A DNA stretch of 64,000 nt from Candidatus Rokuibacteriota bacterium (lineage in GTDB: Bacteria; Methylomirabilota; Methylomirabilia; Rokubacteriales; CSP1-6). The notes beneath the pieces were generated by a model. It was not told where the DNA came from. It did no database searches and saw only the letters and a list, made by a program, of their open reading frames with translations. Location of the stretch: assembly GCA_016179965.1 (NCBI GenBank), contig JACPCF010000019.1, positions 561 to 64,560 of the forward strand, read 5' to 3'. Of the stretch, positions 1,076-44,482 are shown piece by piece; the stretch's first letter is position 1, and every line of letters starts with the position of its first letter. The position numbers and the translations under genes were made by a program.

Positions 1076-1792
1076 TCAGGACGGGGCCAGGTCTTCGAAG
1101 ACCGCGCGGTAGAGACCATCCCAGAACCGGGCCCGGGCGCCCAAGGAGGCGTGGGCCCCCTCGAGAATGCGCTCGTGGTTCTCGGGCGTCTCGGCGTAGC
1201 GGGCTAGAGCCATCCGAAGGAGTCTCCCGTGCTCGAGGTCCTGGGCCACGTGCAGGGTGAAGTACTCCAGCGGTTTGTCCTCCACTCCGACCTTCCGAAG
1301 GCCCTCCACCAGGTAGGCGAACATCGTAGGGATCGCCCACTCATGGCCGGGGCCCACAGCCCCCAGCCCCACCAGATAGTGACGGAGCGAGGTCAGCTCG
1401 ATGTGATGGTTGATGAAGGCCCGGGTCTCCGGGAGGGCCTCCACGCGGTCCCAGTCTTCTTCGCTAAGCCCGAGGGCGCGCAGGAACCGCCGGTAGAGCG
1501 CGGGATGGGAGCAGTCATAGGTCTGAGGACGGGCGTACTCATCCTCCAGTACCATATGGATCCAGTCCCTCACCTCCTGCTCCGGGATGCTCTTGACCAG
1601 GGCTTCCAGATAGGTCGTGAACACCCGAACGAGCTGATAGTGCTGGAGACCAAAAGCCCAGAGCTGAATCCGTCGCAGGCCGCCCTCGGCGAACCGACGC
1701 AGGAAGGGGTGGTGCAGGGCGGGATGGCTTCGAACCTCGGCTTCCAAGCGCTGAAGGAAGAGCTCAGCGCGCGTGGGATCAGTTCCGGGCAT
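1076..1792 (-). CDS. TenA/PqqC-like (haem-oxygenase-like fold) iron-containing redox enzyme family protein
   Basis: ORF 1076..1906; likely start MPGTDP (ATG 1790-1792); helical E/H-rich translation typical of the PqqC/TenA superfamily. Confidence 0.55.
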   Translation of the reverse strand: MPGTDPTRAELFLQRLEAEVRSHPALHHPFLRRFAEGGLRRIQLWAFGLQHYQLVRVFTTYLEALVKSIPEQEVRDWIHMVLEDEYARPQTYDCSHPALYRRFLRALGLSEEDWDRVEALPETRAFINHHIELTSLRHYLVGLGAVGPGHEWAIPTMFAYLVEGLRKVGVEDKPLEYFTLHVAQDLEHGRLLRMALARYAETPENHERILEGAHASLGARARFWDGLYRAVFEDLAPS

Positions 1793-1805
1793 ATTTTGCT
1801 GGCCC

Positions 1806-2216
1806 TCAGAAGGTGAGGACCTTGTCGGCGGTCGCGACCTCTTCCAAGAGGAAGGCCGTAAGCCCGCGCACCTCGATGCCGTCGAGGAGATCCTCGGCCT
1901 CCACACCGCAAATCGCCATGGAGGAGCTACAGGCGTAGAGCCGCACGTCCCCGAGCTCCATTACCTGTCGCAAAAGCCCCGGCAGGTCTGTGAGCGCCAG
2001 GGCCGAGAGGCGCTCCCGCACCGCCGCCTCGTGCTCGCGATAAGCCTCCGAGAGGTTGATCTCCTGGACCCCTCTCTTGGTCACCTTGAGGACCGCCTCG
2101 TCGCGAAAGAACACCCTCACTGCCACCCCCGAGCTGACGGCCGCCATCAGCAGCGTCACAACTTGGACGAGGCTGTTGAAGTTGCCGTGCGAGGCGATGA
2201 CGGCCAGGGTGTTCAC
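1806..2216 (-). CDS. DsrE/DsrF-like sulfur-relay family protein
   Basis: C-terminal 136 aa of ORF 1806..2555 (VNTLAVIASHG..., Cys-containing YACSSSMAICG); GTG start at 2214-2216 overlaps the tusA-like stop. Confidence 0.6.
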   Translation of the reverse strand: MNTLAVIASHGNFNSLVQVVTLLMAAVSSGVAVRVFFRDEAVLKVTKRGVQEINLSEAYREHEAAVRERLSALALTDLPGLLRQVMELGDVRLYACSSSMAICGVEAEDLLDGIEVRGLTAFLLEEVATADKVLTF

Positions 2217-2512
2217 GGAGTGGGTTCGCCGGCCCGCTTCTGGACGAAGGAGACGATGAGCGAGCCCCAGCGGGCGTCGGGCTCCCGCCGGTGACCGAGG
2301 AACCGGTGGCCGGTGGTCCGGCACCAGGCAGGGTAGTCGTGCTCGGCGGCGAGGTCCGTCGAGAGCACTTTGACGACACCCGCCGGACCCACGGTCAGCA
2401 TCGCCCGCATCAGCCGGAGGATGCCCTGGGCGCAGAGCATCCCCCGGTTGTCCACCACGGTGGAGACCGTGCCTTCCTCGACCGGACGCCCCTCCCCGCT
2501 TACCAGTTCCAT
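2213..2512 (-). CDS. TusA-like sulfurtransferase
   Basis: 99 aa; DYPAWCRTTGHRF matches the TusA C-terminal signature; Cys in the LCAQG motif. Confidence 0.7.
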   Translation of the reverse strand: MELVSGEGRPVEEGTVSTVVDNRGMLCAQGILRLMRAMLTVGPAGVVKVLSTDLAAEHDYPAWCRTTGHRFLGHRREPDARWGSLIVSFVQKRAGEPTP

Positions 2513-2883
2513 ACTGTGTCGAACTGGTCCACGAACTTTCCCATCTCTTTCCCACTGAGGAGCTGGACTCCCTCGGTCAGCTCGTCTTTCTTGATCCCAC
2601 GCTCCTCCAGGTCTTCGCGCACGGCGTAGACGGGGATGTTCGCCTGGTGGACCGACTTGAGGTCGGTCTCAATCAGGAAGCCGGGCTGGACGAGCGTCCC
2701 GGCAATCCTAATCCCGGTCCCGTCCTGGCCGCGGACCGCATAGTTGACGGCGTCCCCCCGCAGGAGCAGCGTCAGGGGTTGCCCCGCCACCGAGGCAAAG
2801 GCGGAGGCGAAGAGGCCGATGTCGCTGTCCTCAAGGTTTCCGTACTCGGTGTGAGCGAGCACGGAGAGAATCTTCTTAGCCAT
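2500..2883 (-). CDS. DsrE/DsrF-like family protein
   Basis: 127 aa, MAKKILSVLAHTEYGN...; GGAGGG Shine-Dalgarno upstream of the start. Confidence 0.7.
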   Translation of the reverse strand: MAKKILSVLAHTEYGNLEDSDIGLFASAFASVAGQPLTLLLRGDAVNYAVRGQDGTGIRIAGTLVQPGFLIETDLKSVHQANIPVYAVREDLEERGIKKDELTEGVQLLSGKEMGKFVDQFDTVWNW

Positions 2884-2905: not shown

Positions 2906-3337
2906 TTAGTGGGCCGACATCAAGAGCGTCTTGTCGGCCTGGTCCGTGAACTTGTAGAGGTCCCCGAGCGTGCCGTGCACGACGGGATCGAGGTGGTAGC
3001 CCTGTGGAACGCCCCGTTCCACACAGCAGAGCCCTCAGACGTACCACTGGAGCTTGGGCTCGCTCTTCCCCTTCTCCAGGAGCCGGGCCACGAACTCCGC
3101 CGTGGTGTTGTGGGCCTTGCCCACGTCGGTGTGATGCGCGGCGTTGGTCTTCCAGATCGGGTCGTCGTGCTGGGCCTGGGCCTTGGCGGTGAGGAGCACG
3201 CCGTCCTCGTAGGCCAGCACGTTGACGTTGTACCCCTTGTCGAGGGCCGTGTCCACCAGCCGGAAGAGGCTGATGGGGGTCTCGTTGCCGTACGGTCCCG
3301 CCGTGATGCAGATGTGAAGGGTCTTCCGGTTCGCCAT
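2906..3337 (-). CDS. DsrE-like protein, candidate selenoprotein (in-frame TGA at 3035-3037 read as Sec)
   Basis: ORF 3035..3337 (100 aa) stops at TGA. The same frame continues 42 codons (GLCCVERGVPQGYHLDPVVHGTLGDLYKFTDQADKTLLMSAH) to TAA at 2906-2908. The KFTDQ(A)D segment parallels the KFVDQFD C-terminus of the neighbouring DsrE paralog. Confidence 0.55.
3003..3023 (-). promoter_or_regulatory. SECIS-like mRNA hairpin (UGUGGAACG-GGG-CGUUCCACA) 11 nt downstream of the in-frame UGA
   Basis: perfect 9-bp stem with 3-nt G-rich loop read directly from the sequence; position matches the bacterial SECIS spacing. Confidence 0.5.
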
Positions 3338-3349: not shown

Positions 3350-3679
3350 TCAATGCCAGATGGCTTTGTCTGACTTCTCCATCAGGAGGTCGATGAGTTC
3401 ATCCGCATTGCTCACCCGGACCCCCTCGGAGAGCCGCTCCTTGGTGATGCCGCGCTGTCGAAGAGAGATCTCGTCCGCCAGGAGCGTCAAGTTATGGGTC
3501 TTGGCCTCGGCCAGGAGCTTCTCACCCGCCTCGAAGCGCTTCCGCGCGGCGAAGACCGCATCCTGCACGAGATAGATCGTGACGTTGTGCCGGAGCTCCC
3601 GGAGCTGCTTCGCCAGCTCGAACGCGTGCTCCCCGCCCTCCAGCGGGCTCTTGGACTCGACTAAAAGGTACTGGGCCAT
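3350..3679 (-). CDS. DsrE/DsrF/DsrH-like family protein
   Basis: 109 aa, MAQYLLVESKSPLEGG... Confidence 0.6.
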   Translation of the reverse strand: MAQYLLVESKSPLEGGEHAFELAKQLRELRHNVTIYLVQDAVFAARKRFEAGEKLLAEAKTHNLTLLADEISLRQRGITKERLSEGVRVSNADELIDLLMEKSDKAIWH

Positions 3680-3696: not shown

Positions 3697-4512
3697 TCAG
3701 GCTTTCGTTCGGGTAATTGCCAGAGAGGGATCGGTGGGACGCACTGGATCCCGCTCAGCAACCGCACAAGAAGCGTCGAACCACCGGAGTCGGCCGCGCA
3801 AGCGAACGACATCGCCGATAACGGCGACCACAGGCGGCTGAAGCCCCGCGGCCTTGTCCAGGATGTCGGCGAGCGTGCCGGTGATCGTCTGCTGGGCTTC
3901 AGTCGTCCCCCAGCGGATGAGGGCCACGGGGGTCTCCGGGGAGCGACCGTGGGCCAGAAGCTCAGCGACGATCCGGGGCAGCGTCCGCGCCCCCATCAGG
4001 ACGACCAGGGTGTCCACCGCGGTCGCCAGCCGTTCCCACTCCACGGCGGGCTCACCCTTGCACCCGTCCTCGTGGCCCGTGACGACGGCGAAGGAGGACG
4101 CCAGCCCACGGTGGGTGAGGGGGATTCCCGCGTAGGCCGGCACCGCCACGGCCGAGCTGACCCCTGGCACGACCTCGAAGGGGATCCCCGCCGCCGCTAG
4201 AGCCTCTGCCTCCTCCCCGCCCCGGCCGAAGACGAAGGGATCGCCACCTTTCAGTCTGACTACCCGACGGCCGCGTCGAGCGTGGGCGATGAGGAGATCA
4301 TTGATCTGCTCCTGGGGCAGGCTGTGGCCGCCGGCGAGCTTGCCGGCAAAGATGCGCAGCGCGTCGGGCGGCGACTCGTCGAGCAGGATCGGGTTGACCA
4401 GGCGATCATAGATCACCACCTCGGCCTTCCGCAGCACTTCCAGGCCACGCACCGTCAGGAGACCAGGATCGCCCGGCCCCGCGCCGACCAGATAGACGGT
4501 GGCTACCCGCAT
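3697..4512 (-). CDS. cobA: uroporphyrinogen-III C-methyltransferase (sirohaem branch)
   Basis: VYLVGAGPGDPGLLT...GGDPFVFGRGGEE motifs; start MRVATV at 4512 overlaps the upstream gene by 10 nt. Confidence 0.9.
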   Translation of the reverse strand: MRVATVYLVGAGPGDPGLLTVRGLEVLRKAEVVIYDRLVNPILLDESPPDALRIFAGKLAGGHSLPQEQINDLLIAHARRGRRVVRLKGGDPFVFGRGGEEAEALAAAGIPFEVVPGVSSAVAVPAYAGIPLTHRGLASSFAVVTGHEDGCKGEPAVEWERLATAVDTLVVLMGARTLPRIVAELLAHGRSPETPVALIRWGTTEAQQTITGTLADILDKAAGLQPPVVAVIGDVVRLRGRLRWFDASCAVAERDPVRPTDPSLAITRTKA

Positions 4513-5138
4513 GTCCCCGCCCTGAGCCGCGACAAGAGACGCGCCTTGGCTTCGTCCCGGCGCCCTTCGGCGATCAGGCTCCGGAGGTCTCCGTCGAGCG
4601 CCCGGCGCCACGCCGCGCCGTCGGGAAGCCGCCCGCGCTCCTTCAGCTCCTGCCTGACCTCCGCCGCGACCTCGGCGAGCACGGCGTAATCCTCCGTGAA
4701 ATAGGCCTCGAGCTCGTCTCTCACCGCGCGGGACAGGGCCGGGCTCGCGCCTCCCGTGGCCACCGCCACCACGAGCGCCCCCCGCCGGACGACGGCGGGA
4801 AGAATGAAATCACAATGGGCTGGATCGTCGGCGGCGTTGACCCACACGCCCCGTTCCCTCCCTTCGCGGGCGACGGTCGCATTGACCTCCCCGCCGTCGG
4901 AAGCGGCAAAAGCCAACTCCGAGCCCGACAGATCGCCGGGGCGGTATTCCCGGGCCACGTGCCGGATTCGCCCCTCCCCGGCCAGCACCCCAAGGCGCGG
5001 GGTGAGCGCGGGACTGATCACCGTCACGGATGCTTCCGCGGCGATGAGGGCCTCCACCTTGTGCTCGGCCACCCGACCGCCGCCGATGACGACGCACCGT
5101 CGCCCGGCCACCTCGAGGAAGACCGGATAGTAGCCCAT
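4503..5138 (-). CDS. sirC: precorrin-2 dehydrogenase/sirohydrochlorin ferrochelatase (SirC/CysG N-terminal domain-like)
   Basis: 211 aa, Rossmann motif VVIGGGRVA and family resemblance. Confidence 0.8.
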   Translation of the reverse strand: MGYYPVFLEVAGRRCVVIGGGRVAEHKVEALIAAEASVTVISPALTPRLGVLAGEGRIRHVAREYRPGDLSGSELAFAASDGGEVNATVAREGRERGVWVNAADDPAHCDFILPAVVRRGALVVAVATGGASPALSRAVRDELEAYFTEDYAVLAEVAAEVRQELKERGRLPDGAAWRRALDGDLRSLIAEGRRDEAKARLLSRLRAGTCG

Positions 5139-5141: not shown

Positions 5142-8027
5142 TCAGCCGTCCACGCCGTGGGGCGGCCGCCCCGGTGAGGGATCCCGGTCCGCCGCGGCGA
5201 CCTCGGCGCCGGCCAGGAATTCTCGGAGCTTGTCGTCGGTGTGACGGGCGCAGAACCGGCGGAAGTTCTCTCCGTTGACCCGCCCCGAAAGGTAAGTCTT
5301 GAGCAGCCGCTCGATGGCTGCCGGCACCTCGACCGCGGGAGCGCGGTAGCCGATGGGACGTGCTTTGGCCTGGTATTTCCCCACGGCCCCCCCCACGCAG
5401 AAGTAATAGGCATCCACCATCTGGCCTTCCACCTTCATCTTCTTCCCCTCGATCCCGATGTCCGCGATCCAGTGCTGCCCGCAGCTGTTGGGGCAGCCGG
5501 TGATGTGGATCTTGACGTGCTGTTCGAAACCGGGCAGGCGCGTTTCAAGATCCTCCACCAGCCAGCGGGCGAAGTTCTTCGTTTCGCTCAGCGCGAGCTT
5601 GCAGAACTCCGTCCCCGTGCAGGCGATGGTGCCCCGCCAGAAGGGCGAGGCGTCGATCCTGAACCCCGCGTCCCCGAGCTCCCGCGCCAGCCGCTCGGCG
5701 CGGTCCCGGCGGACGTTCAGGATGAGGAGGTTCTGCATGTTGGTCGTCCGGAGCTCCCCCGTGCCGTAGAGCTCCGCGAGGTCCGCCACGGCCCGCATCT
5801 CACCCGGAGACATGCGTCCGCGGAGGACGGCAATCCCCGCGTAGCAGTAGCCGTCCTGCCTCTGGGGGTGGATTCCCACGTGGTCCCGGTAGACGTCGTC
5901 CGGAGGATCCTCTGGGACCGCGGGGTCCAGGCTGAACCCCATCCGGCGTTCCAGCTCTTCCTGAAATCGCCCGGCCGTCCAGCCGTGGGTGAGGAAGAGG
6001 AACTTGAGTCGCGCCTTCTCCCGATTCTGGCGGAGGACGTCGCTGTCACGGAAGATCTCGGAGATCCCCTTTACGACGGGAAGAACCTGGTTCCAGCGCA
6101 CAAAGGCGTTGAGCCGGAGGCCGAGGTGCGGGTCGGTGGACAGCCCACCGCCTACCCGCACGGAGAAGCCGATCTCGCCGGTCTGGGGGTCCGGGAGAGC
6201 GGTCATTCCGATGTCGTTGATCTCCGGATACGAGCACCAGACCCGGCAGCCGGTGATGGAGATCTTGTACTTGCGCGGGAGGTTGTAGAAGTCAGGATTG
6301 CCGTTCAGCATCCCGGTCGCCGCACGGACCAGCGGGGAGGCGTCCACGACCTCGTCGGCGTCCACGCCGGCCAGCGGGCAGCCGGTGACGTTGCGGGTGT
6401 CGTCGCCGCAGGCGCCCATCGTGGTGATGCCGCACCGCCAGAGGCTTTGAAAGATCTCCGGGAGGTCCTCGATCTTCACCCAGTGGAGCTGGACGTTCTG
6501 CCGGACGGTGATGTCCGCGACCCCGCGCGCGTGCCTCTCCGCGAGGTCGGCAAGGGTCCGGAGCTGGTGGGAGAGGAGGAAGCCGTTGGGGAGGCGGATC
6601 CGGACCATGAAATAGGGCACCGCCTTGCCTTCGCCCCCCTTTCCCCCCACCGCGCCGATGCCATCGCCCTGGGTGTACACCCCCCACCAGCGGAAATACG
6701 TATTGAGCCACTCGGCCGGGATCGATTGATAGCCCTCGCGGGCGAACCGGACGATCTCCGAATAGGCGTCCCACGGGTTCAGCGCGCGCTTGAGCCGCTC
6801 GGCCCGCTGGGCCTTGGTCTCTTTCACGGGCTCTGCCGGGGCGCGAGGAGTCTCGGGCCCCCGCACCCAATTCCGCAGGATTTCGGCCACTTCCGGACGG
6901 GTAAACTCCGCGGGGAGAGGCTCCCCCCGCCCCAAGAGTTCGCGTACCAGGCTCCCGCTCAGGGCCATCCGGTCCGACGGATTGTGCGGGCAGGTTTTGG
7001 GAGACGTAATGGCCTCGCACCGACGGCAGTAGAAGGTCTCATCGAAAAAGAGGGGGACGACGCCGAGCTCCTCGGAGGCGAACCGGCGGAAGATCTCGTC
7101 CACCGTCAGCGGGGAGGACGCGGTCTCGACCCCCGCGTATTCGCGCCCGACAATAAAGTGGGTGCAGCCATAATTCTTCCGGACGAGGGCGTGGAAGAGC
7201 GTCTCTCTGGGGCCCGCATACCGCATCGCGCCAGGAAACACCGCCAGCACCACGCGGTCCTTGGGGTAGTACTGCTCGACCAGAACCTGGTAGCAGCGGA
7301 CGCGGACCTCCGAGGGAACCTCGTCGAGCTTGGTCTGCCCCACAAGCGGGTGGATGAGGAGGCCGTCGAGCGGCTCCAACGCGCACTTCTGCACGTATTC
7401 ATGGGCGCGGTGGATGGGGTGCTGGCTCTGAAATCCGACGACGGTGCGCCACCCAAGCGCCTCGAACCGAGCCCGCGTCGCGGAGGGATCGAGACGGTAG
7501 GCCTCGAACCCCTTCAGGGGAGGACGGGTGATCAGGTCCACCTTTCCGGCCAGAAGCACATCGCCCCGGCTAAGCTGATACTGGGCCCCGGGGTGACGGG
7601 GGTCCTCCGTCCCGTAGACCAGGCGGGCCTCCTCGCGCCCATCGTAGGGGAAACGCTCTTTCAGGTGCAGGATGCCGAGCGGCTCCTCCCATGGGGACAC
7701 GAGGGCCACCTCTTCCCCTTCCCTCAACACGTCGGCGTCAGCGCGCCGGACCGCCAGCGTGATCGGCAGAGGCCAGGGAAGGCCGTTGGCCAGGCGCATC
7801 TCCTGAAGGACGCTCCGGTAGTCGGCCTCACCGATGAACCCTTCGAGGGGGCTGTAGGCCCCGACCGCGATCAGCTCGACATCGGACATCGTGCGGGCGT
7901 TCAGGGCGATACGCTTCAACGAGGAAACGCGCCGGCCGGCCTCATCTCGGGCTTCGCCACGGAGGACTCGATCGACCAGCACCCCACCGTGGGGGGGAAT
8001 CGTGGTTCCTACGGACGCCTGAGTCAT
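5142..8027 (-). CDS. fusion protein: N-terminal sulfate adenylyltransferase (ATP sulfurylase) + C-terminal sirohaem ferredoxin-type sulfite reductase hemoprotein
   Basis: single uninterrupted 972-codon ORF. N-terminal part has IPPHGG...QSQHPIHRAHE...GREYAGVE; C-terminal part has the 4Fe-4S/sirohaem Cys cluster CTGTEFC...CPNSC. Likely start MTQASV (ATG 8025-8027). Confidence 0.85.
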   Translation of the reverse strand: MTQASVGTTIPPHGGVLVDRVLRGEARDEAGRRVSSLKRIALNARTMSDVELIAVGAYSPLEGFIGEADYRSVLQEMRLANGLPWPLPITLAVRRADADVLREGEEVALVSPWEEPLGILHLKERFPYDGREEARLVYGTEDPRHPGAQYQLSRGDVLLAGKVDLITRPPLKGFEAYRLDPSATRARFEALGWRTVVGFQSQHPIHRAHEYVQKCALEPLDGLLIHPLVGQTKLDEVPSEVRVRCYQVLVEQYYPKDRVVLAVFPGAMRYAGPRETLFHALVRKNYGCTHFIVGREYAGVETASSPLTVDEIFRRFASEELGVVPLFFDETFYCRRCEAITSPKTCPHNPSDRMALSGSLVRELLGRGEPLPAEFTRPEVAEILRNWVRGPETPRAPAEPVKETKAQRAERLKRALNPWDAYSEIVRFAREGYQSIPAEWLNTYFRWWGVYTQGDGIGAVGGKGGEGKAVPYFMVRIRLPNGFLLSHQLRTLADLAERHARGVADITVRQNVQLHWVKIEDLPEIFQSLWRCGITTMGACGDDTRNVTGCPLAGVDADEVVDASPLVRAATGMLNGNPDFYNLPRKYKISITGCRVWCSYPEINDIGMTALPDPQTGEIGFSVRVGGGLSTDPHLGLRLNAFVRWNQVLPVVKGISEIFRDSDVLRQNREKARLKFLFLTHGWTAGRFQEELERRMGFSLDPAVPEDPPDDVYRDHVGIHPQRQDGYCYAGIAVLRGRMSPGEMRAVADLAELYGTGELRTTNMQNLLILNVRRDRAERLARELGDAGFRIDASPFWRGTIACTGTEFCKLALSETKNFARWLVEDLETRLPGFEQHVKIHITGCPNSCGQHWIADIGIEGKKMKVEGQMVDAYYFCVGGAVGKYQAKARPIGYRAPAVEVPAAIERLLKTYLSGRVNGENFRRFCARHTDDKLREFLAGAEVAAADRDPSPGRPPHGVDG

Positions 8028-8135
8028 GCGCCGGTGCCCCTGTGTCGGAGAAAGGTACACTTTCCGATCAAGAATGTCAAGAAGTAACGTAAATCCAGGA
8101 AAGGCAATTACTTCGGGGTGGCTGGGGCAGCCCGT

Positions 8136-9530
8136 CTAGACCAGAACCAGGCCGGCGGCGGCTTCGCCGGAGTGGACGCAGTCGGAGATGCCAACGCCGC
8201 AGTAGGCGCTCCCGGCGAGCGCCAGCCCCGGATGGCCAACCAGCCGCCGCTCGATCGCCGCCACAGTCTCCAGGTGGCCCACGTGGTACTGGGCCATCGA
8301 GGCCGGGTAGCGGTGGACGCGGGTGAGCAGGGGCGGTGCTGTCACGCCGAGCAGCTCGTTCAGCTGGGCCCTCACGATCGCCGCCATCCGCGCGTCGTCC
8401 TCCTTGAGGATGCCCTCGTCGAGGGGGCCGCCGACGAAAACGCGAAGCAGGGCGTGACCAGGCGGGGCCCGCCCCGGGTACTTCACGCTGGAGAAGGTGC
8501 AGGCCAGGAGCGGGCGACGCTCGATCCGGGGCACGACGAAGCCGAAGCCGTCCAGCGGATGGGCGATCTCCTCCCGGCGGTAGGCGAGCGCGACCGTCGC
8601 CGATGAGGCGTACGGAATCGCCTCAAGAAGATGGGCCAGGCTCGGGTCGAGGGCGCGGACCATGCGCGCGGCCTGGGGCGCCTCGGCCGCCACGATGACC
8701 GCATCCGCGTCCACGCCGCTTCCGTCGGCCAAGCCCACACGCCAGCGGCCACCGTCGCGCCGGAGCCCGACGACCCGTTCCTTGAGCCTCACCGAGCCCG
8801 GCGGGAGGCGATCGCCGAGCGCGCGCGTGAACTCTTCCATCCCGTCCGCAAACGTGACGAAGAGGCTCCAGCGGGCGCCGCTCACCCCTTGGGCCTTCCG
8901 GGACGCGCGCCAGAGCGCCAGGATGAGGCTCCGGTGGGCTCGCTCCATCTCGAGGAAGCGCGGCATGGTCGCCGCCAGGCTCAGGAGATCCGGGTCGGCC
9001 GTGTAGATCCCCGCCACCAGCGGCTGGGCCACTCGCTCCAGCGCTTCGACGCCGAGCCGGCGGCGGACGAAGGACCCGAGGCTCTCATCCTCCGAGCCGA
9101 CCCTCCGCGGCAGCACAACGTCCATCGCCATCCTGAGCTTGCCCCGCCACGAAAAGAGTCGCGAGGAGAGCAGCGGCCCCAGGCGCGCGGGGGCCAGGAG
9201 CTGAAAGCCCTCGGGGAGCGGCTCGAGGCGCCCGCGGAAGACCACCCAGGTCTGGCGGAACCGGTCGTCGGTGCGAACGAGCCGGCCCGCGAGGCCGAGC
9301 CGCTCCGCCAGCGCCAGAGCCCAGGGTTTTTCCGAGATGAAGGAGTCGGGGCCGGCCTCGATCAGGAAGCCCTGGGTGCGCTCGGTGGCGATGGTGCCGC
9401 CGAGACGGTCACGCGCTTCCAGAAGGGTGAGGTCGATCGGCTCGCCGCGCTCGCGGGAAAGCTCGGTGAGCCGGTGAGCCGCGGCGAGGCCGCCAATCCC
9501 GCCGCCCACCACGACCACCCGGCGCGCCAC
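8136..9530 (-). CDS. hemY: protoporphyrinogen/coproporphyrinogen III oxidase (HemY/CgoX family)
   Basis: FAD motif VVVVGGGIGGLAAA; proposed GTG start at 9528-9530. Confidence 0.8.
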   Translation of the reverse strand: MARRVVVVGGGIGGLAAAHRLTELSRERGEPIDLTLLEARDRLGGTIATERTQGFLIEAGPDSFISEKPWALALAERLGLAGRLVRTDDRFRQTWVVFRGRLEPLPEGFQLLAPARLGPLLSSRLFSWRGKLRMAMDVVLPRRVGSEDESLGSFVRRRLGVEALERVAQPLVAGIYTADPDLLSLAATMPRFLEMERAHRSLILALWRASRKAQGVSGARWSLFVTFADGMEEFTRALGDRLPPGSVRLKERVVGLRRDGGRWRVGLADGSGVDADAVIVAAEAPQAARMVRALDPSLAHLLEAIPYASSATVALAYRREEIAHPLDGFGFVVPRIERRPLLACTFSSVKYPGRAPPGHALLRVFVGGPLDEGILKEDDARMAAIVRAQLNELLGVTAPPLLTRVHRYPASMAQYHVGHLETVAAIERRLVGHPGLALAGSAYCGVGISDCVHSGEAAAGLVLV

Positions 9531-9534
9531 GTCG

Positions 9535-10473
9535 TTACGCCCTGAGACCAGCCTTCGCCAGGCCGGCCAGCATCTCGATGAAAGCCGGGTGGTCGTTGAC
9601 GGCGCCGGCGCGATGGAAACGAAGCCCCAGCTCCTCCGCCAGCCGGCGCGCCTCGACGTCCAGGTCGTAGAGCACCTCGACGTGGTCCGAGACAAAGCCG
9701 ATTGGCGCGACCACCACGTCGCCCACGCCCTCCTTGGCCAGCCCGCGCAGGACGTCGCAGATGTCAGGCTCGAGCCAGGGATCGGGCGGCGAGCCACTCC
9801 GGCTCTGATAGGCCACCGACCATCGGGGATAACCGAGCCGTGCCGCCACAGCGCGCGAGGCCGCCGTGAACTGGGCCACGTACGGCGAGCCGTCGGCCAT
9901 CGCCGTGGGAACGCTATGCGCGGTGAAGACGAGCGGCGTGGCCTTCCTTCTGTCCGCGGGAATCGCGGACAAGACGGCCCTCACCCGATCCCCCGCGGCC
10001 TCGATGAAGCGCGGATGGTCGAACCAGGGCGGAGCGTACGAGACCTCCGGCGCCCCCGGGCCCACCTTCTCCCGGGCGGCCGCGACGTCGCCCACGTAGC
10101 GGTCCCAGGAGGCCTCCGTCTCAAAGGACGACAGGATGATCCCCAGGGCGCGCCGGTGGCCCTTGTCTTTCATCTCCGCCAGCGCCTCGTGAAAGAACGG
10201 GTGCCAGTTCCTCATGCCGACGTAGACGGGCACGGAGAGGCCGTCGCGCGTCAAGGCGCGGCGCAGCCCCTCCGCCTGGAGAAGCGTGAGATCGTTCAGC
10301 GGGGAGCGACCGCCGATGACTTCGTAATGGTGCGCTACTTCTTCGAGGCGCTCGGCAGGAATGTGCCGGCCCGCGGTGACGATCTGGAGGAAGGGGCGGA
10401 TGTCCTCGGGCTTTTCCGGGCCGCCGAAGGCGATCAGCAAGACCGAATCCACCACGCTCATGGCCGCGCCCAC
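9535..10473 (-). CDS. hemH: ferrochelatase (HemH/CpfC)
   Basis: 312 aa, LLIAFGGPEKPEDIRPFL...; alternative start ATG at 10461. Confidence 0.85.
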   Translation of the reverse strand: MGAAMSVVDSVLLIAFGGPEKPEDIRPFLQIVTAGRHIPAERLEEVAHHYEVIGGRSPLNDLTLLQAEGLRRALTRDGLSVPVYVGMRNWHPFFHEALAEMKDKGHRRALGIILSSFETEASWDRYVGDVAAAREKVGPGAPEVSYAPPWFDHPRFIEAAGDRVRAVLSAIPADRRKATPLVFTAHSVPTAMADGSPYVAQFTAASRAVAARLGYPRWSVAYQSRSGSPPDPWLEPDICDVLRGLAKEGVGDVVVAPIGFVSDHVEVLYDLDVEARRLAEELGLRFHRAGAVNDHPAFIEMLAGLAKAGLRA

Positions 10474-10477
10474 AGCA

Positions 10478-11593
10478 CTATCTCGCGTCGTTCGAGCGCG
10501 GGCTTTGCCCGCGCAACCCCGGGGGGGAGGAATCGGAAGGGGGGCGGAGCCCCCCTCCGAGCGAAGACAGCTCGTGAACCATCTCCACCATCGCGATCAC
10601 GTGCTCCACGGACGTCTCGGGGAGGACCCCGTGGCCGAGGTTGAAGATGTGGCCGGGCCGGGCGGCGGCCCGATCGAGGATCGCCCGGACATGCCGCTTG
10701 ATCTCGGCGGGCTTCGCGAGCAGCACGGCCGGGTCGAGGTTCCCCTGGACCGCCACGTCGTAGCCGATGCGCTTCCAGGCGTCGGCCAGGTCCACGCGCC
10801 AGTCGAGACCGATCACGTCCCCCCCCGCCTCGCGCAGCAGCTCGAGCAGGCCCGCGGTGCCCGTGCTGAAGTGGATGACGGGAACGCCCGGCGTGAGCCC
10901 TTTGATGACGGCGCGCGTATGGGGCAGGACGAACTCGCGGTAGGCGTCGGGCGAGAGCGCCCCCACCCAGGAGTCGAAGAGCTGCACGGCCTGGGCGCCC
11001 GCGGCGATCTGGCCGTTCACGTAGCCGACGGTGACCCTGACGAGGCGCTCCATGAGGGCGTGCCACGCGGCGGGATCGTCGTGCATCAGCCGCTTCGTGT
11101 GGAGATACTCGCGGGACGCGCTGCCCTCGATCAGGTAGGAGGCCACCGTGAAGGGCGCGCCGGCGAAGCCGATCAGCGGCACTCGCGCGGCCAGCGCCTT
11201 GCGCACCGTGCGGATCGCCTCGAAGACGAAGGGCGTCGCCTCCCGGGGGTCCACGTCCGCCAGCCGCCGGAGATCCGCCGCGCCGCGCACGGGACGGTGG
11301 ATGAGGGGCCCTTCCCCCTTGGCGAACTCCAGGCCCACCCCCATGGGCTCAACCGGCAGGAGAATGTCGGCGAAGATGATCGCGGCGTCCACGCCGAGGC
11401 GCTCCACCGGCAAGAGAGTCACCTCGGCAGCCGCCTCGGGATTCTTGCAGAGCTCCAGGAAGCCGAACCGCTCGCGGAGCGCGCGGTACTCGGCCATGAA
11501 GCGCCCCGCCTGGCGCATGAGCCAGACCGGGGTGAACTCGGTGGGCTCGCGCCGGCACGCGCGGAGAAAGGGAGCGGGCGCCGCGGCGTTCAT
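10478..11593 (-). CDS. hemE: uroporphyrinogen decarboxylase
   Basis: PVWLMRQAGR motif; start MNAAAP (ATG 11591-11593). The last ~28 codons are encoded by repeat family 1 copy A. Confidence 0.85.
   Translation of the reverse strand: MNAAAPAPFLRACRREPTEFTPVWLMRQAGRFMAEYRALRERFGFLELCKNPEAAAEVTLLPVERLGVDAAIIFADILLPVEPMGVGLEFAKGEGPLIHRPVRGAADLRRLADVDPREATPFVFEAIRTVRKALAARVPLIGFAGAPFTVASYLIEGSASREYLHTKRLMHDDPAAWHALMERLVRVTVGYVNGQIAAGAQAVQLFDSWVGALSPDAYREFVLPHTRAVIKGLTPGVPVIHFSTGTAGLLELLREAGGDVIGLDWRVDLADAWKRIGYDVAVQGNLDPAVLLAKPAEIKRHVRAILDRAAARPGHIFNLGHGVLPETSVEHVIAMVEMVHELSSLGGGLRPPSDSSPPGLRGQSPRSNDAR
10491..10562 (+). repeat. repeat family 1, copy A (short form: hairpin GAGCGCGGGCTTTGCCCGCGC + GGGGGGCGGAGCCCCCCTCCGAG)
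   Basis: direct comparison with copies B to E. Confidence 0.8.
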
Positions 11594-11651
11594 GGATGAT
11601 CGAGCGTACAGGAAGCGCCGCGGATTGACAACTCTCGGCACCTGGGCGACC

Positions 11652-13334
11652 ATGGCGTCCATGCCGTTCATGGCGGGGAAGCAGGCGTTCCTGGAGCTCC
11701 TCAAGCAGGAGGGCGCGGAGGTGCTCTTCGGCAACCCGGGGACCACCGAGCTGCCGCTGATGGACGGCCTGGCGCGCGAGACGCGGATCCACTACATCCT
11801 GGCCCTCCAGGAGGCGGTGGCCATCGCCATGGCCGACGGCTACGCTCAGGCCAGCGGCAAGCTGGCCCCGGTGAACGTCCACATCTCCCCCGGCCTCGGC
11901 AACGCGATGGGGATGCTCTACGACGCCTGGAAGGCCGGCTCTCCTCTGCTCCTGACCGCGGGTCAGCACGATCAATCCTTCACCGTCACCGAGCCCGTCC
12001 TCTGGTCCGAGCTGCCGCCCGTGGCGAAGCCCTACGTGAAGTGGGCGACCGAAGTCCGCCGGCTGGAAGATCTGCCGCGCATCGTGCATCGCGCGGCGAA
12101 AGTCGCTCTGACGCCGCCGACAGGCCCCGTCTTCCTCTCCCTGCCCGTGGACGTGCTCAACGCCGAGCGCGACCTGGAGCTGGGCGAGCCCACCCGCGTG
12201 GACCCGCGGATCCGCGGGGCGCGCGAGGCGGTGGAGCGGGCGGCCGACCTCCTGACCCAGGCCAAGCGACCGCTCATCGTGGCCGGCGACGCCATAGCCC
12301 AGGGCGACGGCCACGCCGAGCTGATCGAGGTGGCCGAGTTGCTCGGCGCGCCGGTCCGCACGGAAGGGATGGCCAACCGCTGCAACTTCCCCTTCACCCA
12401 CCCGCTCTATCAGGGCGCGATCTCGCGCCTGGCCCCCGATCTGCGCGCGCTCCTCCAGCAGCACGACCTGCTCTTCTCCGTGGGCGGCGACCTCTTCACC
12501 CTGTCGCTTCCGTCGGACGTGGAGCCCATGCCCCACGGCCTGACGATCATCCATCTGGACGTGGATCCCTGGGAGGTCGGCAAGAACTACCCTGCCAAGG
12601 TGGCGATCCTCGGCGATCCGAAGGCAACGCTGCCCGAGCTGGCTGAGGCGCTGCGGAAACGCTTCGGAGGAAGCGCGCACCCCGAGGCCCAGCGCCGCAC
12701 GGAGGAAGCGGAGAAGCAACGCGCTCAGACGATCGCCGAGTTGAAGAAGCGCGCGCTGGCCGCGAGCGGCCGTCAGCCGATCGCGCCCTTGGCCCTGATC
12801 CACGCCCTCGCCGAGGGCCTGCCGCCCGACGCGGTGGTCGTGGACGAATCGATCTCCTCGGGAGGAGGCCTCCGGGAACTCCTTCGCTGCCAGGATCCCC
12901 GGAGCTTCTTCGGCCTCCGGGGCGGCGGCATCGGCTGGGGGCTCCCGGCGGCGCTCGGGGTCAAGCTCGCGCTGCCGCGCCGCCCGGTCGTGGCGCTGGT
13001 GGGAGACGGGAGCGCGATGTACACCAACCAGGCCTTCTGGACCGCCGCCCATGAGGGGCTCGGCGTGATCTTCCTGATCGTCAACAACAGGAGTTACCGG
13101 GTCCTGAAGCAGCGCGTCCACGCCCTCAAGGGCTTTTCGGCCCAGGACAACGTGTACGTGGCGATGGACCTCGACAAGCCGCTCATCGACTTCGTCGGGC
13201 TCGCCCAGTCCCTCGGCGTGCCCGGTGAGCGCGTGGAGAAGGCCGCGGACATCGGCCCGGCCCTGGCCCGCGGTCTCGCTGCCGGCGGACCGTACCTCCT
13301 CGACGTCCAGGTGGACGGGACGTTCAAGCCCTAG
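11652..13334 (+). CDS. thiamine-pyrophosphate-dependent enzyme (acetolactate synthase/benzoylformate decarboxylase family)
   Basis: TPP-binding GDGS...NN motif and N-terminal pyrimidine-binding domain; start MASMPF. Confidence 0.8.
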   Translation: MASMPFMAGKQAFLELLKQEGAEVLFGNPGTTELPLMDGLARETRIHYILALQEAVAIAMADGYAQASGKLAPVNVHISPGLGNAMGMLYDAWKAGSPLLLTAGQHDQSFTVTEPVLWSELPPVAKPYVKWATEVRRLEDLPRIVHRAAKVALTPPTGPVFLSLPVDVLNAERDLELGEPTRVDPRIRGAREAVERAADLLTQAKRPLIVAGDAIAQGDGHAELIEVAELLGAPVRTEGMANRCNFPFTHPLYQGAISRLAPDLRALLQQHDLLFSVGGDLFTLSLPSDVEPMPHGLTIIHLDVDPWEVGKNYPAKVAILGDPKATLPELAEALRKRFGGSAHPEAQRRTEEAEKQRAQTIAELKKRALAASGRQPIAPLALIHALAEGLPPDAVVVDESISSGGGLRELLRCQDPRSFFGLRGGGIGWGLPAALGVKLALPRRPVVALVGDGSAMYTNQAFWTAAHEGLGVIFLIVNNRSYRVLKQRVHALKGFSAQDNVYVAMDLDKPLIDFVGLAQSLGVPGERVEKAADIGPALARGLAAGGPYLLDVQVDGTFKP

Positions 13335-15212: not shown

Positions 15213-15411
15213 CGCGTCCCCGTCGGCTGCTGGCGGCCGTTCAAGCCCACTTCCCGGCTGGTGGACGCCGACGGCCGGTTCCACCGCTTCTCCGGAGAGG
15301 TGCGCGTGGACCCGAACACGCTGGATCAGGCCGTGGTGGATACGGCCATCCGACCTCCGCGGCATCCCGGCCCCCTCCGGCAGCCCCTCCTGATCTGGTA
15401 CACTTACTTCC

Positions 15412-15915
15412 GTGTTTGACCGGGCGCGCGATCCCGAGCTCTTGAGGAGCATTTTCGAGCGGACGCGGGTCTTGCGAAAGCCCCTGAGGGGGATCATCGC
15501 CGGCTACCACGTCCTCCCGTACATCCTCGTCGGGCCGCAGGAGGAGCAGCAGCAACGGTCCGTCGAGATCCGGGGGAAGATCCGCGTCTCCCCGCGGCTC
15601 GTCCTGGCCCCCGGCCAGCACGGCCAGACCTACGGCGAGCTCTTCCGCGACCAGGAGGTCATGGACCAGGCCTTGGTGGCCCGGGTCTTCAGCTTCCTCT
15701 ACAGCTCCCGCCATCAGGTCACGCTCGAGCACGAGGAGCTCAAGATCACCCGGAGCGACCGGGAACCCGAGGCCCAGATCCACCGGTCGCTGGACGAGCT
15801 CCTCCAGCGCGAGATCATCGACACGGGGGTGATCCTCTGCCCCCAGGTCAGATTCTATCCCGTTTCGATTGACCGCTTCATCACGGAGATCCTGGACGAG
15901 GAGTTCCGCCCGTGA
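15412..15915 (+). CDS. hypothetical protein
   Basis: 167-aa ORF, 4-nt overlap with the downstream CaiB gene; no family recognised. Confidence 0.4.
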   Translation: MFDRARDPELLRSIFERTRVLRKPLRGIIAGYHVLPYILVGPQEEQQQRSVEIRGKIRVSPRLVLAPGQHGQTYGELFRDQEVMDQALVARVFSFLYSSRHQVTLEHEELKITRSDREPEAQIHRSLDELLQREIIDTGVILCPQVRFYPVSIDRFITEILDEEFRP

Positions 15916-21532: not shown

Positions 21533-22086
21533 CCAAACGCGCGCGCGCCATGCTGAGGCAGATGGACCGGACCACCCGGACCTGGTTCCTCCCGACCATC
21601 GGGCGGGAGAAGGCCACGTTCATCGCCCGCCTCATTGACAAGCACCGGCCGAAGCGGGCCGTCGAGATCGGCTCCCTCATCGGCTACTCCGCCATCGTCA
21701 TCGCCGGCCACCTGCCGCCGGGCGGCCGCCTCACCTGCATCGAGCTGAACCCTTTCATGGCGATGATCACCGAGGAGAACCTGGCGACCGCGGGCCTCGC
21801 CACGCGCAGCCGCGTCATCACGGGCGACGCCCGGCGCGTGCTCCCGTTCCTGGGGAGCCGCTTCGACTTCGCGCTGATCGACGCCACCAAGGAGGAGTAC
21901 TTCGAGTACCTCCGCGCGCTGGAGCCCCGTTTGGCAAAGGGCGCCCTAGTCGTGGCAGACAACACGCGGCTCTACCGGAGCCGGCTGAAGGACTACCTTG
22001 CCCACGTCAGGCGGAGCGGCCGGTACGAGAGCCACGAGCAGGGGTTCGGCAAGGATGCCATGGAGCTGAGCCGCTTCCTTGGCTAG
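21529..22086 (+). CDS. class I SAM-dependent O-methyltransferase
   Basis: VEIGSLIGYSAI and DFALIDATKEEY motifs; ATGA overlap with the upstream gene. Confidence 0.7.
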   Translation: MTKRARAMLRQMDRTTRTWFLPTIGREKATFIARLIDKHRPKRAVEIGSLIGYSAIVIAGHLPPGGRLTCIELNPFMAMITEENLATAGLATRSRVITGDARRVLPFLGSRFDFALIDATKEEYFEYLRALEPRLAKGALVVADNTRLYRSRLKDYLAHVRRSGRYESHEQGFGKDAMELSRFLG

Positions 22087-38230: not shown

Positions 38231-38235
38231 TTACT

Positions 38236-38314
38236 GGCGGGGTCGACGGGATTTGAACCCGCGGCCTCTGGATTGACAGTCCAGTGTGCTAACCAGGCTG
38301 CACCACGACCCCGC
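38236..38314 (-). tRNA. tRNA-Asp (anticodon GTC)
   Basis: cloverleaf read by hand: acceptor GCGGGGT, anticodon loop cuGUCaa, T-loop GGTTCAAATCC. Confidence 0.8.
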
Positions 38315-38343
38315 GCGCACTTACGATACCATACCGCACTGGA

Positions 38344-38404
38344 CTTTGCCCCACTTGGCCCAAAACTTTGCCCTACTCGCGCTCGACTTTGCCCACTTTG
38401 CCCT
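38344..38404. repeat. four direct copies of ACTTTGCCC at 21-bp phasing spanning the integrase stop codon (candidate recombinase arm-type sites)
   Basis: copies starting 38344, 38365, 38386, 38395. Confidence 0.45.
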
Positions 38405-39500: not shown

Positions 39501-39573
39501 ACGGGAACCCTAGGGCCAGCCGCGCGAGTCGTCAAGTGTATCGTCTTTTAGACAGGGGAGACCGTTGGGGCCC

Positions 39574-39735
39574 TCAGGCGTCTCGGCAATCCTCCACGAG
39601 GCGGTTTAGCTCCGTTATCTCGATCCTCAAGAGCCTTCCCCCTCCGGGAAGACGGACCACGCGGAGTTTCCCGCTTTCCACCCAGCTCCTGACCGTCCAG
39701 TAGGAAACTGCCAGATACTCTGCGGCCTGCCGCAT
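39574..39735 (-). CDS. xis: excisionase/AlpA-like helix-turn-helix DNA-binding protein
   Basis: MRQAAEYLAVSYWTVRSWVESGKLRVVRL. Confidence 0.6.
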   Translation of the reverse strand: MRQAAEYLAVSYWTVRSWVESGKLRVVRLPGGGRLLRIEITELNRLVEDCRDA

Positions 39736-41350: not shown

Positions 41351-41352
41351 GC

Positions 41353-44481: not shown

Positions 44482-44482
44482 G

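What the first reader, a model, noticed from the sequence alone, without database searches (positions are those of the whole stretch)
2906..3337. DsrE-like gene with in-frame UGA followed by a SECIS-like hairpin: candidate selenoprotein in the sulfur-relay operon
The 100-aa DsrE-like ORF (3035..3337, minus) ends at TGA, but the same frame stays open for 42 more codons (GLCCVERGVPQGYHLDPVVHGTLGDLYKFTDQADKTLLMSAH) down to TAA at 2906. That extension carries a KFTDQxD motif matching the C-terminus KFVDQFD of the paralogous DsrE gene at 2500..2883. Without it the 100-aa product lacks the C-terminal region that the other DsrE paralogs in the operon carry. Exactly 11 nt after the UGA the mRNA forms a perfect 9-bp stem with a GGG loop (UGUGGAACG-GGG-CGUUCCACA), which is the spacing and type of structure of bacterial SECIS elements. 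The predicted Sec-Gly-Leu-Cys-Cys segment would sit in a protein family whose chemistry is persulfide relay on a conserved Cys. A sequencing error creating a stop is the alternative, but a point stop exactly in frame with a perfectly placed hairpin favours recoding.
Basis: partly seen in the sequence, partly recalled or inferred. Interest (0 to 1): 0.8.

Follow-up and report, generated by a model that had tools for sequence, protein, structure and literature searches.

The report
Selenocysteine DsrE-like sulfur-relay gene
The apparent stop codon inside this small sulfur-carrier gene is almost certainly read as selenocysteine, which replaces the protein's active-site cysteine; this kind of selenoprotein is already known, but every public copy of this branch is annotated as a truncated 100-residue protein.

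Summary
On the minus strand, the ORF 3337..3035 ends at TGA (3037..3035). The frame stays open for 42 more codons to TAA (2908..2906). A 9-bp hairpin with a GGG loop starts 11 nt after the TGA.

The TGA is not an error. 51 homologous protein clusters all stop at the same ...WYV residue. 17 lineages, mostly Rokuibacteriota/Methylomirabilia MAGs, keep TGA plus the 42-codon extension. The extension is under protein-level purifying selection (pN/pS 0.26, against 0.22 for the N-terminal part).

The six hairpin codons show no synonymous change in any lineage, although they use three rare codons (Fisher p = 7e-5). Relatives with Cys at this position lack the hairpin. In all full-length homologs an invariant Cys of a W-x-x-C-G-L-C-x-x-E-R-G motif aligns with the TGA. 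That Cys corresponds to the active-site Cys78 of DsrE.

The hairpin meets every published bacterial SECIS consensus criterion.

No selA, selB, selD or selC lies in the 64-kb window, so the decoding machinery is unverified. Selenoproteins have been reported in the phylum.

"DsrE-like protein, UxxC" has been a catalogued selenoprotein family since 2005. This is therefore a new, unannotated member of a known kind, sitting in a DsrEFH/TusBCD-like plus TusA cassette.

The parts
2906..3337 (-). Complete DsrE-like selenoprotein gene: 143 codons plus the TAA stop. Sec is residue 101, in the motif W-Y-V-U-G-L-C-C-V-E-R-G.
   Evidence: Translation. Pfam DsrE matches residues 8-138 of the read-through product. 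The extension is conserved, with pN/pS 0.26 across 17 lineages.
3035..3037 (-). In-frame UGA, read as selenocysteine (inferred).
   Evidence: TGA is invariant in 17 lineages and implied in 51 protein clusters. It aligns with an invariant Cys in full-length homologs, which corresponds to DsrE Cys78.
3003..3023 (-). SECIS-like hairpin UGUGGAACG-GGG-CGUUCCACA. It starts 11 nt after the UGA, and its loop starts 20 nt after the UGA.
   Evidence: Folds. No synonymous change across 17 lineages in codons 106-111, despite the rare codons GAA, GTT and CCA. Absent from Cys-form genes. Meets the bSECIS consensus limits quoted in PMC13188914.
3344..3349 (-). Shine-Dalgarno sequence GAGGAG of the selenoprotein gene.
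   Evidence: Read directly; it ends 6 nt upstream of ATG 3337.
3350..3679 (-). 109-aa DsrH/TusB-like DsrE-fold subunit with no Cys; first gene of the cassette.
   Evidence: Pfam DsrE and DsrH. TusB scores below the NCBIfam cut-off. Adjacent to the selenoprotein gene in all loci examined.
2500..2883 (-). 127-aa DsrF/TusC-like DsrE-fold subunit with no Cys; third gene of the cassette.
   Evidence: Pfam DsrH and DsrE. Conserved position.
2213..2512 (-). TusA-like sulfur carrier. The start codon is uncertain (81 to 99 aa are called in relatives).
   Evidence: Pfam TusA PF01206, E = 1.5e-10. Conserved in relatives.
1806..2216 (-). 136-aa DsrE2/DsrE3-like protein with YACSSSMAICG; last gene of the conserved cassette.
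   Evidence: Pfam DsrE and DrsE_2. Translation. Gene calls of 136 to 142 aa at the same position in L001, L025 and L032.

Best explanation
The gene at 3337..2906 (minus strand) encodes a 143-residue DsrE/YchN-fold protein whose codon 101, UGA, is recoded as selenocysteine.

Proposed mechanism:
- While the ribosome sits on the UGA, the hairpin 11 nt downstream acts as a bacterial SECIS element. The hairpin is itself coding sequence, for V-E-R-G-V-P.
- The SECIS recruits SelB carrying Sec-tRNASec, so translation continues for 42 more codons to TAA.
- The Sec replaces the nucleophilic cysteine at the end of a beta-strand and the start of a helix (Cys78 in DsrE and TusD). Together with Cys104 it forms a UxxC motif.
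- The protein is the only subunit with a redox-active residue in a DsrEFH/TusBCD-like trio. The flanking 109-aa and 127-aa DsrE-fold paralogs have no Cys.
- The trio is encoded with a TusA-like carrier and a DsrE2/3-like protein. The most likely role is to accept sulfane sulfur from TusA as a selenenyl-sulfide (Se-S) intermediate and pass it on.

What is shown: the recoding signals, purifying selection on the extension, the Sec/Cys correspondence, the fold and the operon.

What is inferred: the identity of the inserted residue, the presence of SelA/B/C/D, the heteromeric assembly, and the substrate.
For: 1. All 51 homologous clusters (74-90% identity) end at the same ...WYV residue and cover 70% of the read-through query.
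2. In 17 lineages the next codon is always TGA, followed by a 42-codon open frame. That frame has the conserved sequence GLCC[VL]ERGVPQGYHLD... and many synonymous differences.
3. pN/pS is 0.22 for codons 26-100 and 0.26 for codons 112-143. Codons 102-105 have pN = 0 and pS = 0.28, so the stretch right after the UGA is translated in this frame.
4. Hairpin codons 106-111 have pS = 0. All 4 of 4 invariant-residue codons with four or more synonymous alternatives are frozen there, against 1 of 34 elsewhere (Fisher p = 6.8e-5). The stem uses rare codons: GAA 16%, GTT 6%, CCA 4%. Only 1.5% of synonymous recodings fold as well.
5. Cys-form relatives (TGC or TGT at this codon: L029, L030, L023, L024) have no such hairpin.
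6. Full-length homologs carry an invariant Cys in the UGA column. A profile alignment puts it on DsrE Cys78 and on the first Cys of YchN.
7. An AlphaFold2 model of the Cys homolog P0057 matches YchN, DsrE and TusD, with this Cys at a strand-to-helix junction.
8. The hairpin meets the bSECIS consensus: loop of 3-9 nt, stem of 4-16 bp, G in the first two loop positions, 16-37 nt from UGA to loop, and MFE of -7.5 kcal/mol or lower. The observed values are a 3-nt GGG loop, a 7-9 bp stem, 20 nt and -11.7 kcal/mol.
9. TGA is otherwise an ordinary stop in this window (4 of 14 long reference genes; stop column). It is even the true terminator of this same gene in five lineages.
10. Reading through shortens the gap to the next gene from 151 nt to 22 nt, which fits the tight operon.
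11. DsrE-like UxxC proteins are a recognised selenoprotein family. Selenoproteins have been reported in Methylomirabilota.
Against: - No selA, selB, selD or tRNA-Sec lies in the 64-kb window or in about 250 kb of related loci. The rest of the genome could not be searched.
- No second selenoprotein gene was found in the window or the related loci.
- The hairpin never varies in its seven core pairs, so there is no compensatory covariation. The support is synonymous-site freezing only.
- The loop is GGG and lacks the GU of the Escherichia coli fdhF element.
- Rfam gives no match.
- The GAGGG right after the UGA, together with GTG at codon 106, could in principle act as a re-initiation site.
- There is no protein-level evidence.
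Confidence: 0.85

Rival explanations
1. SECIS-dependent or hairpin-stimulated read-through that inserts a standard amino acid rather than Sec. One route would be Cys, through a tRNASec-like tRNA charged with Cys, as described for some bacteria (my own recollection of the work of Mukai and colleagues). Another would be near-cognate Trp or Cys read-through.
For: All sequence evidence for recoding is blind to which residue is inserted. The Sec machinery was not found in the sequence available. The aligned residue in homologs is Cys.
Against: The Sec/Cys pairing at a catalytic Cys, together with a consensus bSECIS, is the standard signature of true selenoproteins. The DsrE-like UxxC family is already catalogued as one. 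Selenoproteins have been reported in the phylum. If Cys were wanted, a TGC or TGT codon would be simpler, as in L029 and L030.
Confidence: 0.06
2. A conserved split gene. The UGA is a real stop, and the C-terminal roughly 38 residues are made separately by re-initiation at GTG (codon 106), using the GAGGG that follows the UGA as a Shine-Dalgarno sequence. The two pieces would then assemble non-covalently.
For: Gene callers annotate a 38-aa ORF starting at that GTG in several contigs. GAGGG lies 9 nt upstream of the GTG.
Against: - Codon 106 is CTG (Leu) in L008 and L009, which removes the start codon.
- Codons 102-105 (G-L-C-C), upstream of the supposed start, change only synonymously (pN = 0, pS = 0.28).
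- The stop falls exactly on the invariant active-site Cys column, so a split would delete the catalytic residue.
- The start codon would be buried in a hairpin of -11.7 kcal/mol.
Confidence: 0.05
3. A sequencing or assembly error, or a recent pseudogene: a point mutation created a premature stop in a Cys-type DsrE gene.
For: On the window alone, a single-base change from TGC or TGT to TGA would give the same picture.
Against: TGA is present in 17 lineages that differ at about 45% of synonymous sites. It is also present in four other assemblies that encode the same N-terminal protein from non-identical DNA. The region downstream is under purifying selection equal to that upstream.
Confidence: 0.01
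4. The hairpin is conserved for a reason unrelated to recoding, for example mRNA stability, RNase processing or translational pausing within the operon, and its position after the UGA is a coincidence.
For: The V/L-E-R-G motif it encodes is conserved in the whole family, Cys forms included. There is no covariation because the stem does not vary.
Against: Amino-acid conservation does not explain frozen third positions or the fixed use of rare codons. Cys-form genes encode the same E-R-G motif without the hairpin. The hairpin co-occurs with TGA in every lineage examined.
Confidence: 0.03

Closest known systems
DsrE-like selenoprotein family (PF02635, UxxC motif; Zhang, Fomenko and Gladyshev 2005, PMC1088965; found in Desulfovibrio vulgaris, PMC1794560; listed in the 2026 review PMC13188914)
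   Same: Same Pfam domain and the same UxxC redox motif (here U-G-L-C). Sec pairs with Cys in homologs. A bacterial SECIS with a small G-containing apical loop lies just downstream of the UGA.
   Different: This clade is from Rokuibacteriota/Methylomirabilia. It is the middle gene of a three-paralog DsrEFH-like cassette with TusA. It has a UGLCC motif and a roughly 20-residue insert (DDPIWK...HHTD). All database copies are truncated at 100 aa, and no NCBIfam model covers it.
DsrEFH (Allochromatium vinosum, PDB 2hy5) and TusBCD (Escherichia coli, PDB 2d1p) sulfur-relay heterohexamers
   Same: Three adjacent DsrE-fold paralogs, only one of which carries the reactive residue. That residue aligns with DsrE Cys78. 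A TusA-type donor is encoded alongside. The fold matches.
   Different: Scores are far below the TusD, TusC and TusB equivalog cut-offs (18-30 bits against 49-94 bits). The protein has Sec instead of Cys, plus a second Cys three residues on, giving a CxxC-type motif that DsrE and TusD lack. No DsrC/TusE acceptor is encoded nearby. Gene order is H-like, E-like, F-like.
[quoted passage not shown]
   Same: YchN is the best structural match and the best match for the C-terminal half. The CxxC motif sits at the same position (C-K-T-C in YchN, C-G-x-C in YedF, U-G-L-C here).
   Different: YchN is a stand-alone protein of unknown function. YedF is a TusA-DsrE fusion that comparative genomics has linked to selenium use. 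Here the TusA and DsrE modules are separate genes, and the motif's first residue is Sec.

Membership tests
Bacterial selenoprotein gene (general definition) | In-frame UGA, with the frame open and under coding selection on both sides | tested here: met
   pN/pS is 0.22 upstream and 0.26 downstream. Codons 102-105 change only synonymously.
Bacterial selenoprotein gene (general definition) | Cys-containing homologs with Cys in the UGA column | tested here: met
   Cys is invariant in 7 full-length homologs, including cyanobacterial ones. The DNA codons are TGC or TGT.
Bacterial selenoprotein gene (general definition) | bSECIS consensus: loop 3-9 nt, stem 4-16 bp, G in loop position 1 or 2, 16-37 nt from UGA to loop, MFE of -7.5 kcal/mol or lower (PMC13188914) | tested here: met
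   GGG loop of 3 nt; 9-bp stem here and 7-8 bp in other lineages; 20 nt spacing; -11.7 kcal/mol. The 7-bp form alone folds at -7.4 kcal/mol, which is borderline.
Bacterial selenoprotein gene (general definition) | selA, selB, selC (tRNA-Sec) and selD present in the same genome | not testable with these tools
   None is present in the 64-kb window, and there is no tRNA-Sec in 16 related loci. The rest of the genome is unavailable. The literature reports selenoproteins in Methylomirabilota.
Bacterial selenoprotein gene (general definition) | Selenium in the protein (75Se labelling or mass spectrometry) | not testable with these tools
   This needs an experiment.
DsrE-like selenoprotein family (Zhang et al. 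2005) | PF02635 DsrE/DsrF-like domain | tested here: met
   37.9 bits against a cut-off of 22.7 bits, over residues 8-138 of the read-through protein. The fold search hits YchN, DsrE and TusD.
DsrE-like selenoprotein family (Zhang et al. 2005) | UxxC redox motif | tested here: met
   U101-G-L-C104. The motif is listed for the family.
DsrE-like selenoprotein family (Zhang et al. 2005) | Orthology with the described members (Desulfovibrio vulgaris, Sargasso Sea sequences) | not tested
   Those sequences could not be fetched with the tools available.
TusBCD / DsrEFH sulfur-relay complex | Three adjacent DsrE-fold paralogs | tested here: met
   Pfam DsrE or DsrH on 3350..3679, 2906..3337 and 2500..2883. 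The trio is conserved in relatives.
TusBCD / DsrEFH sulfur-relay complex | Scores above the NCBIfam equivalog cut-offs for TusD/DsrE, TusC/DsrF and TusB/DsrH | tested here: not met
   18.1 bits against 89.25; 18.8 against 94.15; 30.1 against 49.2.
TusBCD / DsrEFH sulfur-relay complex | Reactive Cys78-equivalent in the E/D subunit | tested here: met
   The U101 column aligns with Cys78 of 2hy5_A. The residue here is Sec, not Cys.
TusBCD / DsrEFH sulfur-relay complex | DsrC/TusE acceptor and heterohexamer formation | not tested
   No DsrC/TusE-like gene appears in the cassette. Assembly of the complex needs an experiment.

The most novel reading that the evidence does not exclude
The Sec-bearing DsrEFH-like trio plus TusA and the DsrE2/3-like protein may form a dedicated chalcogen relay. 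In it, the selenol would carry sulfane sulfur as a Se-S adduct, or would traffic selenium itself. The selenium idea rests on the CGxC DsrE-like domain of YedF, which has been linked to selenium use. Such a relay could feed a pathway that has not been described, tied to sulfate assimilation, SoxYZ or tRNA thiolation. A separate possibility is that the UGA and SECIS pair here inserts Cys through a non-canonical tRNA.
Probability: 0.1. Interest if true: 0.65.

Novelty: new member of a known kind. Interest (0 to 1): 0.4.

Why it matters
Every public copy of this gene found here is annotated as a 100-residue fragment: 51 clusters in the protein database searched, including NCBI, JGI and ENA records. 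These annotations lack the active site and the last third of the fold. No NCBIfam model recognises the family, so annotation pipelines will keep truncating it.

Recognising the gene as a selenoprotein has three consequences:
- It corrects these annotations.
- It adds a family to the Methylomirabilota/Rokubacteria selenoproteome, which is reported to be large.
- It gives a natural Sec-for-Cys substitution at the persulfide-carrying position of a DsrE-type sulfur relay. This would be a useful comparison for how selenium alters sulfur-transfer chemistry.

It does not change what is known about recoding, or about which protein families use Sec.

Tried and rejected
- Rfam, at gathering threshold on the whole window and at a permissive E-value on 2940..3090, found no SECIS family, only chance hits. 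Bacterial SECIS elements are not usefully modelled there.
- ARAGORN found no tRNA-Sec in the window or in 16 related loci.
- Pfam scans of 36 window ORFs and a motif scan for SelB-type GTPase signatures found no Sec machinery.
- A scan for other in-frame TGAs with coding signal on both sides found none apart from this gene, in the window and in all related loci. The same-frame neighbours at 48390 and 61297 are separate genes: a permease next to an Fe-ADH, and IclR next to a solute-binding protein.
- The read-through protein could not be given to the search of protein representatives. The 100-aa N-terminal part was used for that search. For the structure model a Cys homolog (P0057) was used instead.
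- No covariance model of the hairpin was built. The seven core pairs are invariant across all lineages, so it would carry no covariation signal.
- A genome-wide reassignment of UGA (genetic codes 4 or 25) was rejected. TGA ends many ordinary genes here, and it ends this same gene in five lineages.
- Phmmer of the single sequence against the PDB was only marginal (E = 0.2-0.3). The profile search was needed.

Full report
**1. The observation**

- On the minus strand, an ORF starts at ATG 3337..3335, 6 nt after a GAGGAG Shine-Dalgarno sequence. It runs for 100 codons to ...KLQWYV and meets TGA at 3037..3035.
- The same frame stays open for 42 more codons (GLCCVERGVPQGYHLDPVVHGTLGDLYKFTDQADKTLLMSAH) to TAA at 2908..2906.
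- Eleven nucleotides after the TGA comes a perfect hairpin: UGUGGAACG (3023..3015), GGG (3014..3012), CGUUCCACA (3011..3003).
- The hairpin alone folds at -11.7 kcal/mol. The 71-nt context folds at -32.3 kcal/mol, z = -2.2.
- A perfect 9-bp hairpin in the right distance range has about a 0.6% chance per TGA in this sequence. With 1577 TGA triplets, the hairpin alone proves nothing.

**2. The TGA is real and ancient**

- A search of 5.8 billion proteins with the read-through product returned 51 clusters at 74-90% identity. Every one ends at the same ...WYV residue and covers only 70% of the query.
- DNA was obtained for 17 lineages. Most are Candidatus Rokuibacteriota or Methylomirabilia MAGs. 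A few short contigs are binned as Gemmatimonadales, Binatia or Rhodothermales.
- In every lineage the next codon is TGA, followed by exactly 42 codons of conserved protein sequence.
- Four other assemblies encode the identical 100-aa product from non-identical DNA, again with TGA.
- An assembly error or a recent pseudogene is therefore excluded.

**3. The region after the TGA is translated in the same frame**

| Codons | pN/pS or components | Source |
|---|---|---|
| 26-100 (N-terminal part) | pN/pS 0.22 | |
| 102-105 (G-L-C-C, just after the UGA) | pN = 0, pS = 0.28 | |
| 112-143 (extension) | pN/pS 0.26 | |

- The result for codons 102-105 argues against re-initiation at GTG codon 106. So does the CTG at that codon in two lineages.
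- Pfam DsrE (PF02635) matches residues 8-138 of the read-through product, so the domain spans the stop.
- Reading through also shortens the gap to the next gene from 151 nt to 22 nt, in an otherwise tightly packed operon.

**4. The hairpin is under RNA-level constraint and goes with the TGA**

- Codons 106-111 show no synonymous differences among the 17 lineages, while flanking codons have pS of about 0.44-0.50.
- Consider invariant residues whose codons have four or more synonymous alternatives. All 4 of 4 are frozen in the hairpin, against 1 of 34 elsewhere (Fisher p = 6.8e-5).
- The stem uses GAA, GTT and CCA. These make up 16%, 6% and 4% of their codon families in this high-GC genome.
- Only 1.5% of 5000 synonymous recodings of the 45 nt after the UGA fold as stably.
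- Homologs with TGC or TGT at this codon encode the same E-R-G motif without the hairpin (L029, L030 and the two cyanobacterial loci L023 and L024).
- The element satisfies each constraint of the published bacterial SECIS consensus, as quoted in PMC13188914. Those constraints are a 3-9 nt loop, a 4-16 bp stem, G in the first two loop positions, 16-37 nt from UGA to loop, and MFE of -7.5 kcal/mol or lower.
- The observed values are a GGG loop, a 7-9 bp stem depending on lineage, 20 nt and -11.7 kcal/mol.
- From my own knowledge, the 11-nt offset also matches the minimal Escherichia coli fdhF element. The loop, however, lacks that element's GU.
- Rfam has no matching model.

**5. The UGA sits on the active-site cysteine**

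- An exhaustive HMMER search with the N-terminal 100 aa found a small family: 50 representatives at E <= 1e-3.
- Its full-length members share W-x-x-C-[GV]-L-C-x-x-E-R-G, and the first Cys falls in the UGA column. The cyanobacterial gene reads DWVNCGLCVDERGV, against QWYVUGLCCVERGV here.
- A profile of this alignment places the column on Cys78 of Allochromatium vinosum DsrE (2hy5_A...ELDMVVCVAAAQRRG) and on the first Cys of the C-K-T-C motif of YchN (1jx7).
- By established knowledge, Cys78 of DsrE and TusD is the persulfide-accepting residue.
- An AlphaFold2 model of the Cys homolog P0057 has pLDDT 71.6. It matches YchN, Swol_2425 DsrE, DsrE and TusD, and it puts this Cys at the end of a strand and the start of a helix.
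- A product stopping at residue 100 would lack the nucleophile, two helices and two strands.

**6. Genomic context**

- The gene is the second of a conserved five-gene cassette on the minus strand:
  1. a 109-aa DsrH-like protein with no Cys (3679..3350);
  2. the Sec protein;
  3. a 127-aa DsrF-like protein with no Cys (2883..2500);
  4. a TusA-like carrier (2512..2213);
  5. a 136-aa DsrE2/3-like protein (2216..1806).
- The cassette recurs in relatives, but its neighbours differ:
  - a sat-sir fusion and sirohaem synthesis genes here and in L025;
  - ttuA-ttuB in L001;
  - SoxYZ and a YeeE/YedE-type transporter in L032.
- All of these neighbours are sulfur-trafficking genes.
- The three DsrE-fold proteins score far below the NCBIfam cut-offs for TusD, TusC and TusB. 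The system therefore resembles DsrEFH/TusBCD in architecture but is not an equivalog.

**7. Most likely mechanism**

- SelB carrying Sec-tRNASec binds the hairpin and decodes UGA101 as Sec.
- The selenol then receives sulfane sulfur from the TusA-like protein as a Se-S adduct. Cys104 (the UxxC motif) is available to resolve it or pass it on.
- The recoding signals, the selection pattern, the Sec/Cys correspondence, the fold and the operon are shown.
- The inserted residue, the machinery, the complex and the substrate are inferred.
- Confidence that this is a genuine Sec codon is about 0.85.

**8. What could not be tested**

- The window contains no selA, selB, selD or selC, and no second selenoprotein gene.
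- About 250 kb of related loci contain no tRNA-Sec and no other candidate.
- The rest of the genome is out of reach.
- Support for the Sec trait in this lineage comes only from the literature. One report describes a Methylomirabilota MAG predicted to hold 63 selenoprotein genes. Another describes Sec-type group 4 [NiFeSe] hydrogenases in the phylum.

**9. Rival explanations**

- Insertion of Cys or another standard residue at a SECIS-marked UGA: about 0.06.
- A conserved split gene with re-initiation at codon 106: about 0.05.
- A hairpin conserved for unrelated reasons: about 0.03.
- A sequencing artefact or pseudogene: about 0.01.

**10. Comparison with what is known, and verdict**

- "DsrE-like protein" (PF02635, UxxC) was reported as a selenoprotein family in the Sargasso Sea analysis of 2005. 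It was also found in Desulfovibrio vulgaris and is listed in a 2026 review.
- The present gene meets the features of the family that could be tested. It represents a Rokubacteria/Methylomirabilia clade embedded in a DsrEFH-like plus TusA cassette.
- That clade is truncated in every database copy found, and no NCBIfam model covers it.
- The gene is a new, unannotated member of a known kind. It is well supported, useful for annotation and for comparing Sec with Cys in sulfur-relay chemistry, but it would not surprise a specialist. Interest is 0.4.

Noticed in passing
window 5142..8060 (-): A single 972-aa ORF fuses sulfate adenylyltransferase (residues 20-401) to a NirA/Sir-type ferredoxin sulfite/nitrite reductase (residues 412-953). 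It lies directly upstream of split sirohaem synthase genes (4503..5138 and 3697..4611).
   Followed up: partly
window 38235..46000: tRNA-Asp (38235..38312, minus strand) is followed by a phage-type integrase (38373..39509, minus strand). GC content then drops from about 0.70 to about 0.60 over roughly 39.5-46 kb. This looks like an integrated mobile element at the tRNA gene.
   Followed up: partly
window 1076..1906 (-): A CADD/haem-oxygenase-like (TenA/PqqC superfamily) di-iron protein directly follows the sulfur-relay cassette. It is at the same place in L025. Its link to the cassette is unknown.
   Followed up: no
L009, L010, L015, L017, L020 (codon 144 of the orthologous gene): In five lineages the true terminator of the selenoprotein gene is itself TGA. 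The same gene therefore contains one recoded and one terminating UGA, 43 codons apart.
   Followed up: yes
L029 475..885 (protein P0059): A relative with TGC (Cys) at the Sec position, no hairpin, an internal deletion of about 16 aligned residues and a divergent C-terminus. It may be a Sec-to-Cys reversion, a decaying copy or an assembly problem on a 991-nt contig.
   Followed up: partly
L004 about 691 onward; protein P0053: Two database variants carry frameshifts. In L004 the frameshift lies in the extension; in P0053 it comes after residue 55. They are probably assembly or strain variants.
   Followed up: no
L001 7227..8362; L032 357..938 and 3902..4897: The five-gene cassette sits next to different sulfur genes in different lineages: ttuA-ttuB (tRNA 2-thiolation) in L001, and a SoxY-SoxZ fusion plus a YeeE/YedE-type transporter in L032. 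This suggests a portable sulfur-donor module.
   Followed up: partly
window 8136..11791 (-): A haem biosynthesis cluster: a protoporphyrinogen-oxidase-like flavoprotein, ferrochelatase and uroporphyrinogen decarboxylase. It adjoins the sulfate-assimilation and sirohaem genes.
   Followed up: no
window 22070..23503 (+) and 15394..15915 (+): Two ORFs with strong coding signal (GC3 above 0.9), 477 and 173 aa long, have no Pfam match.
   Followed up: no
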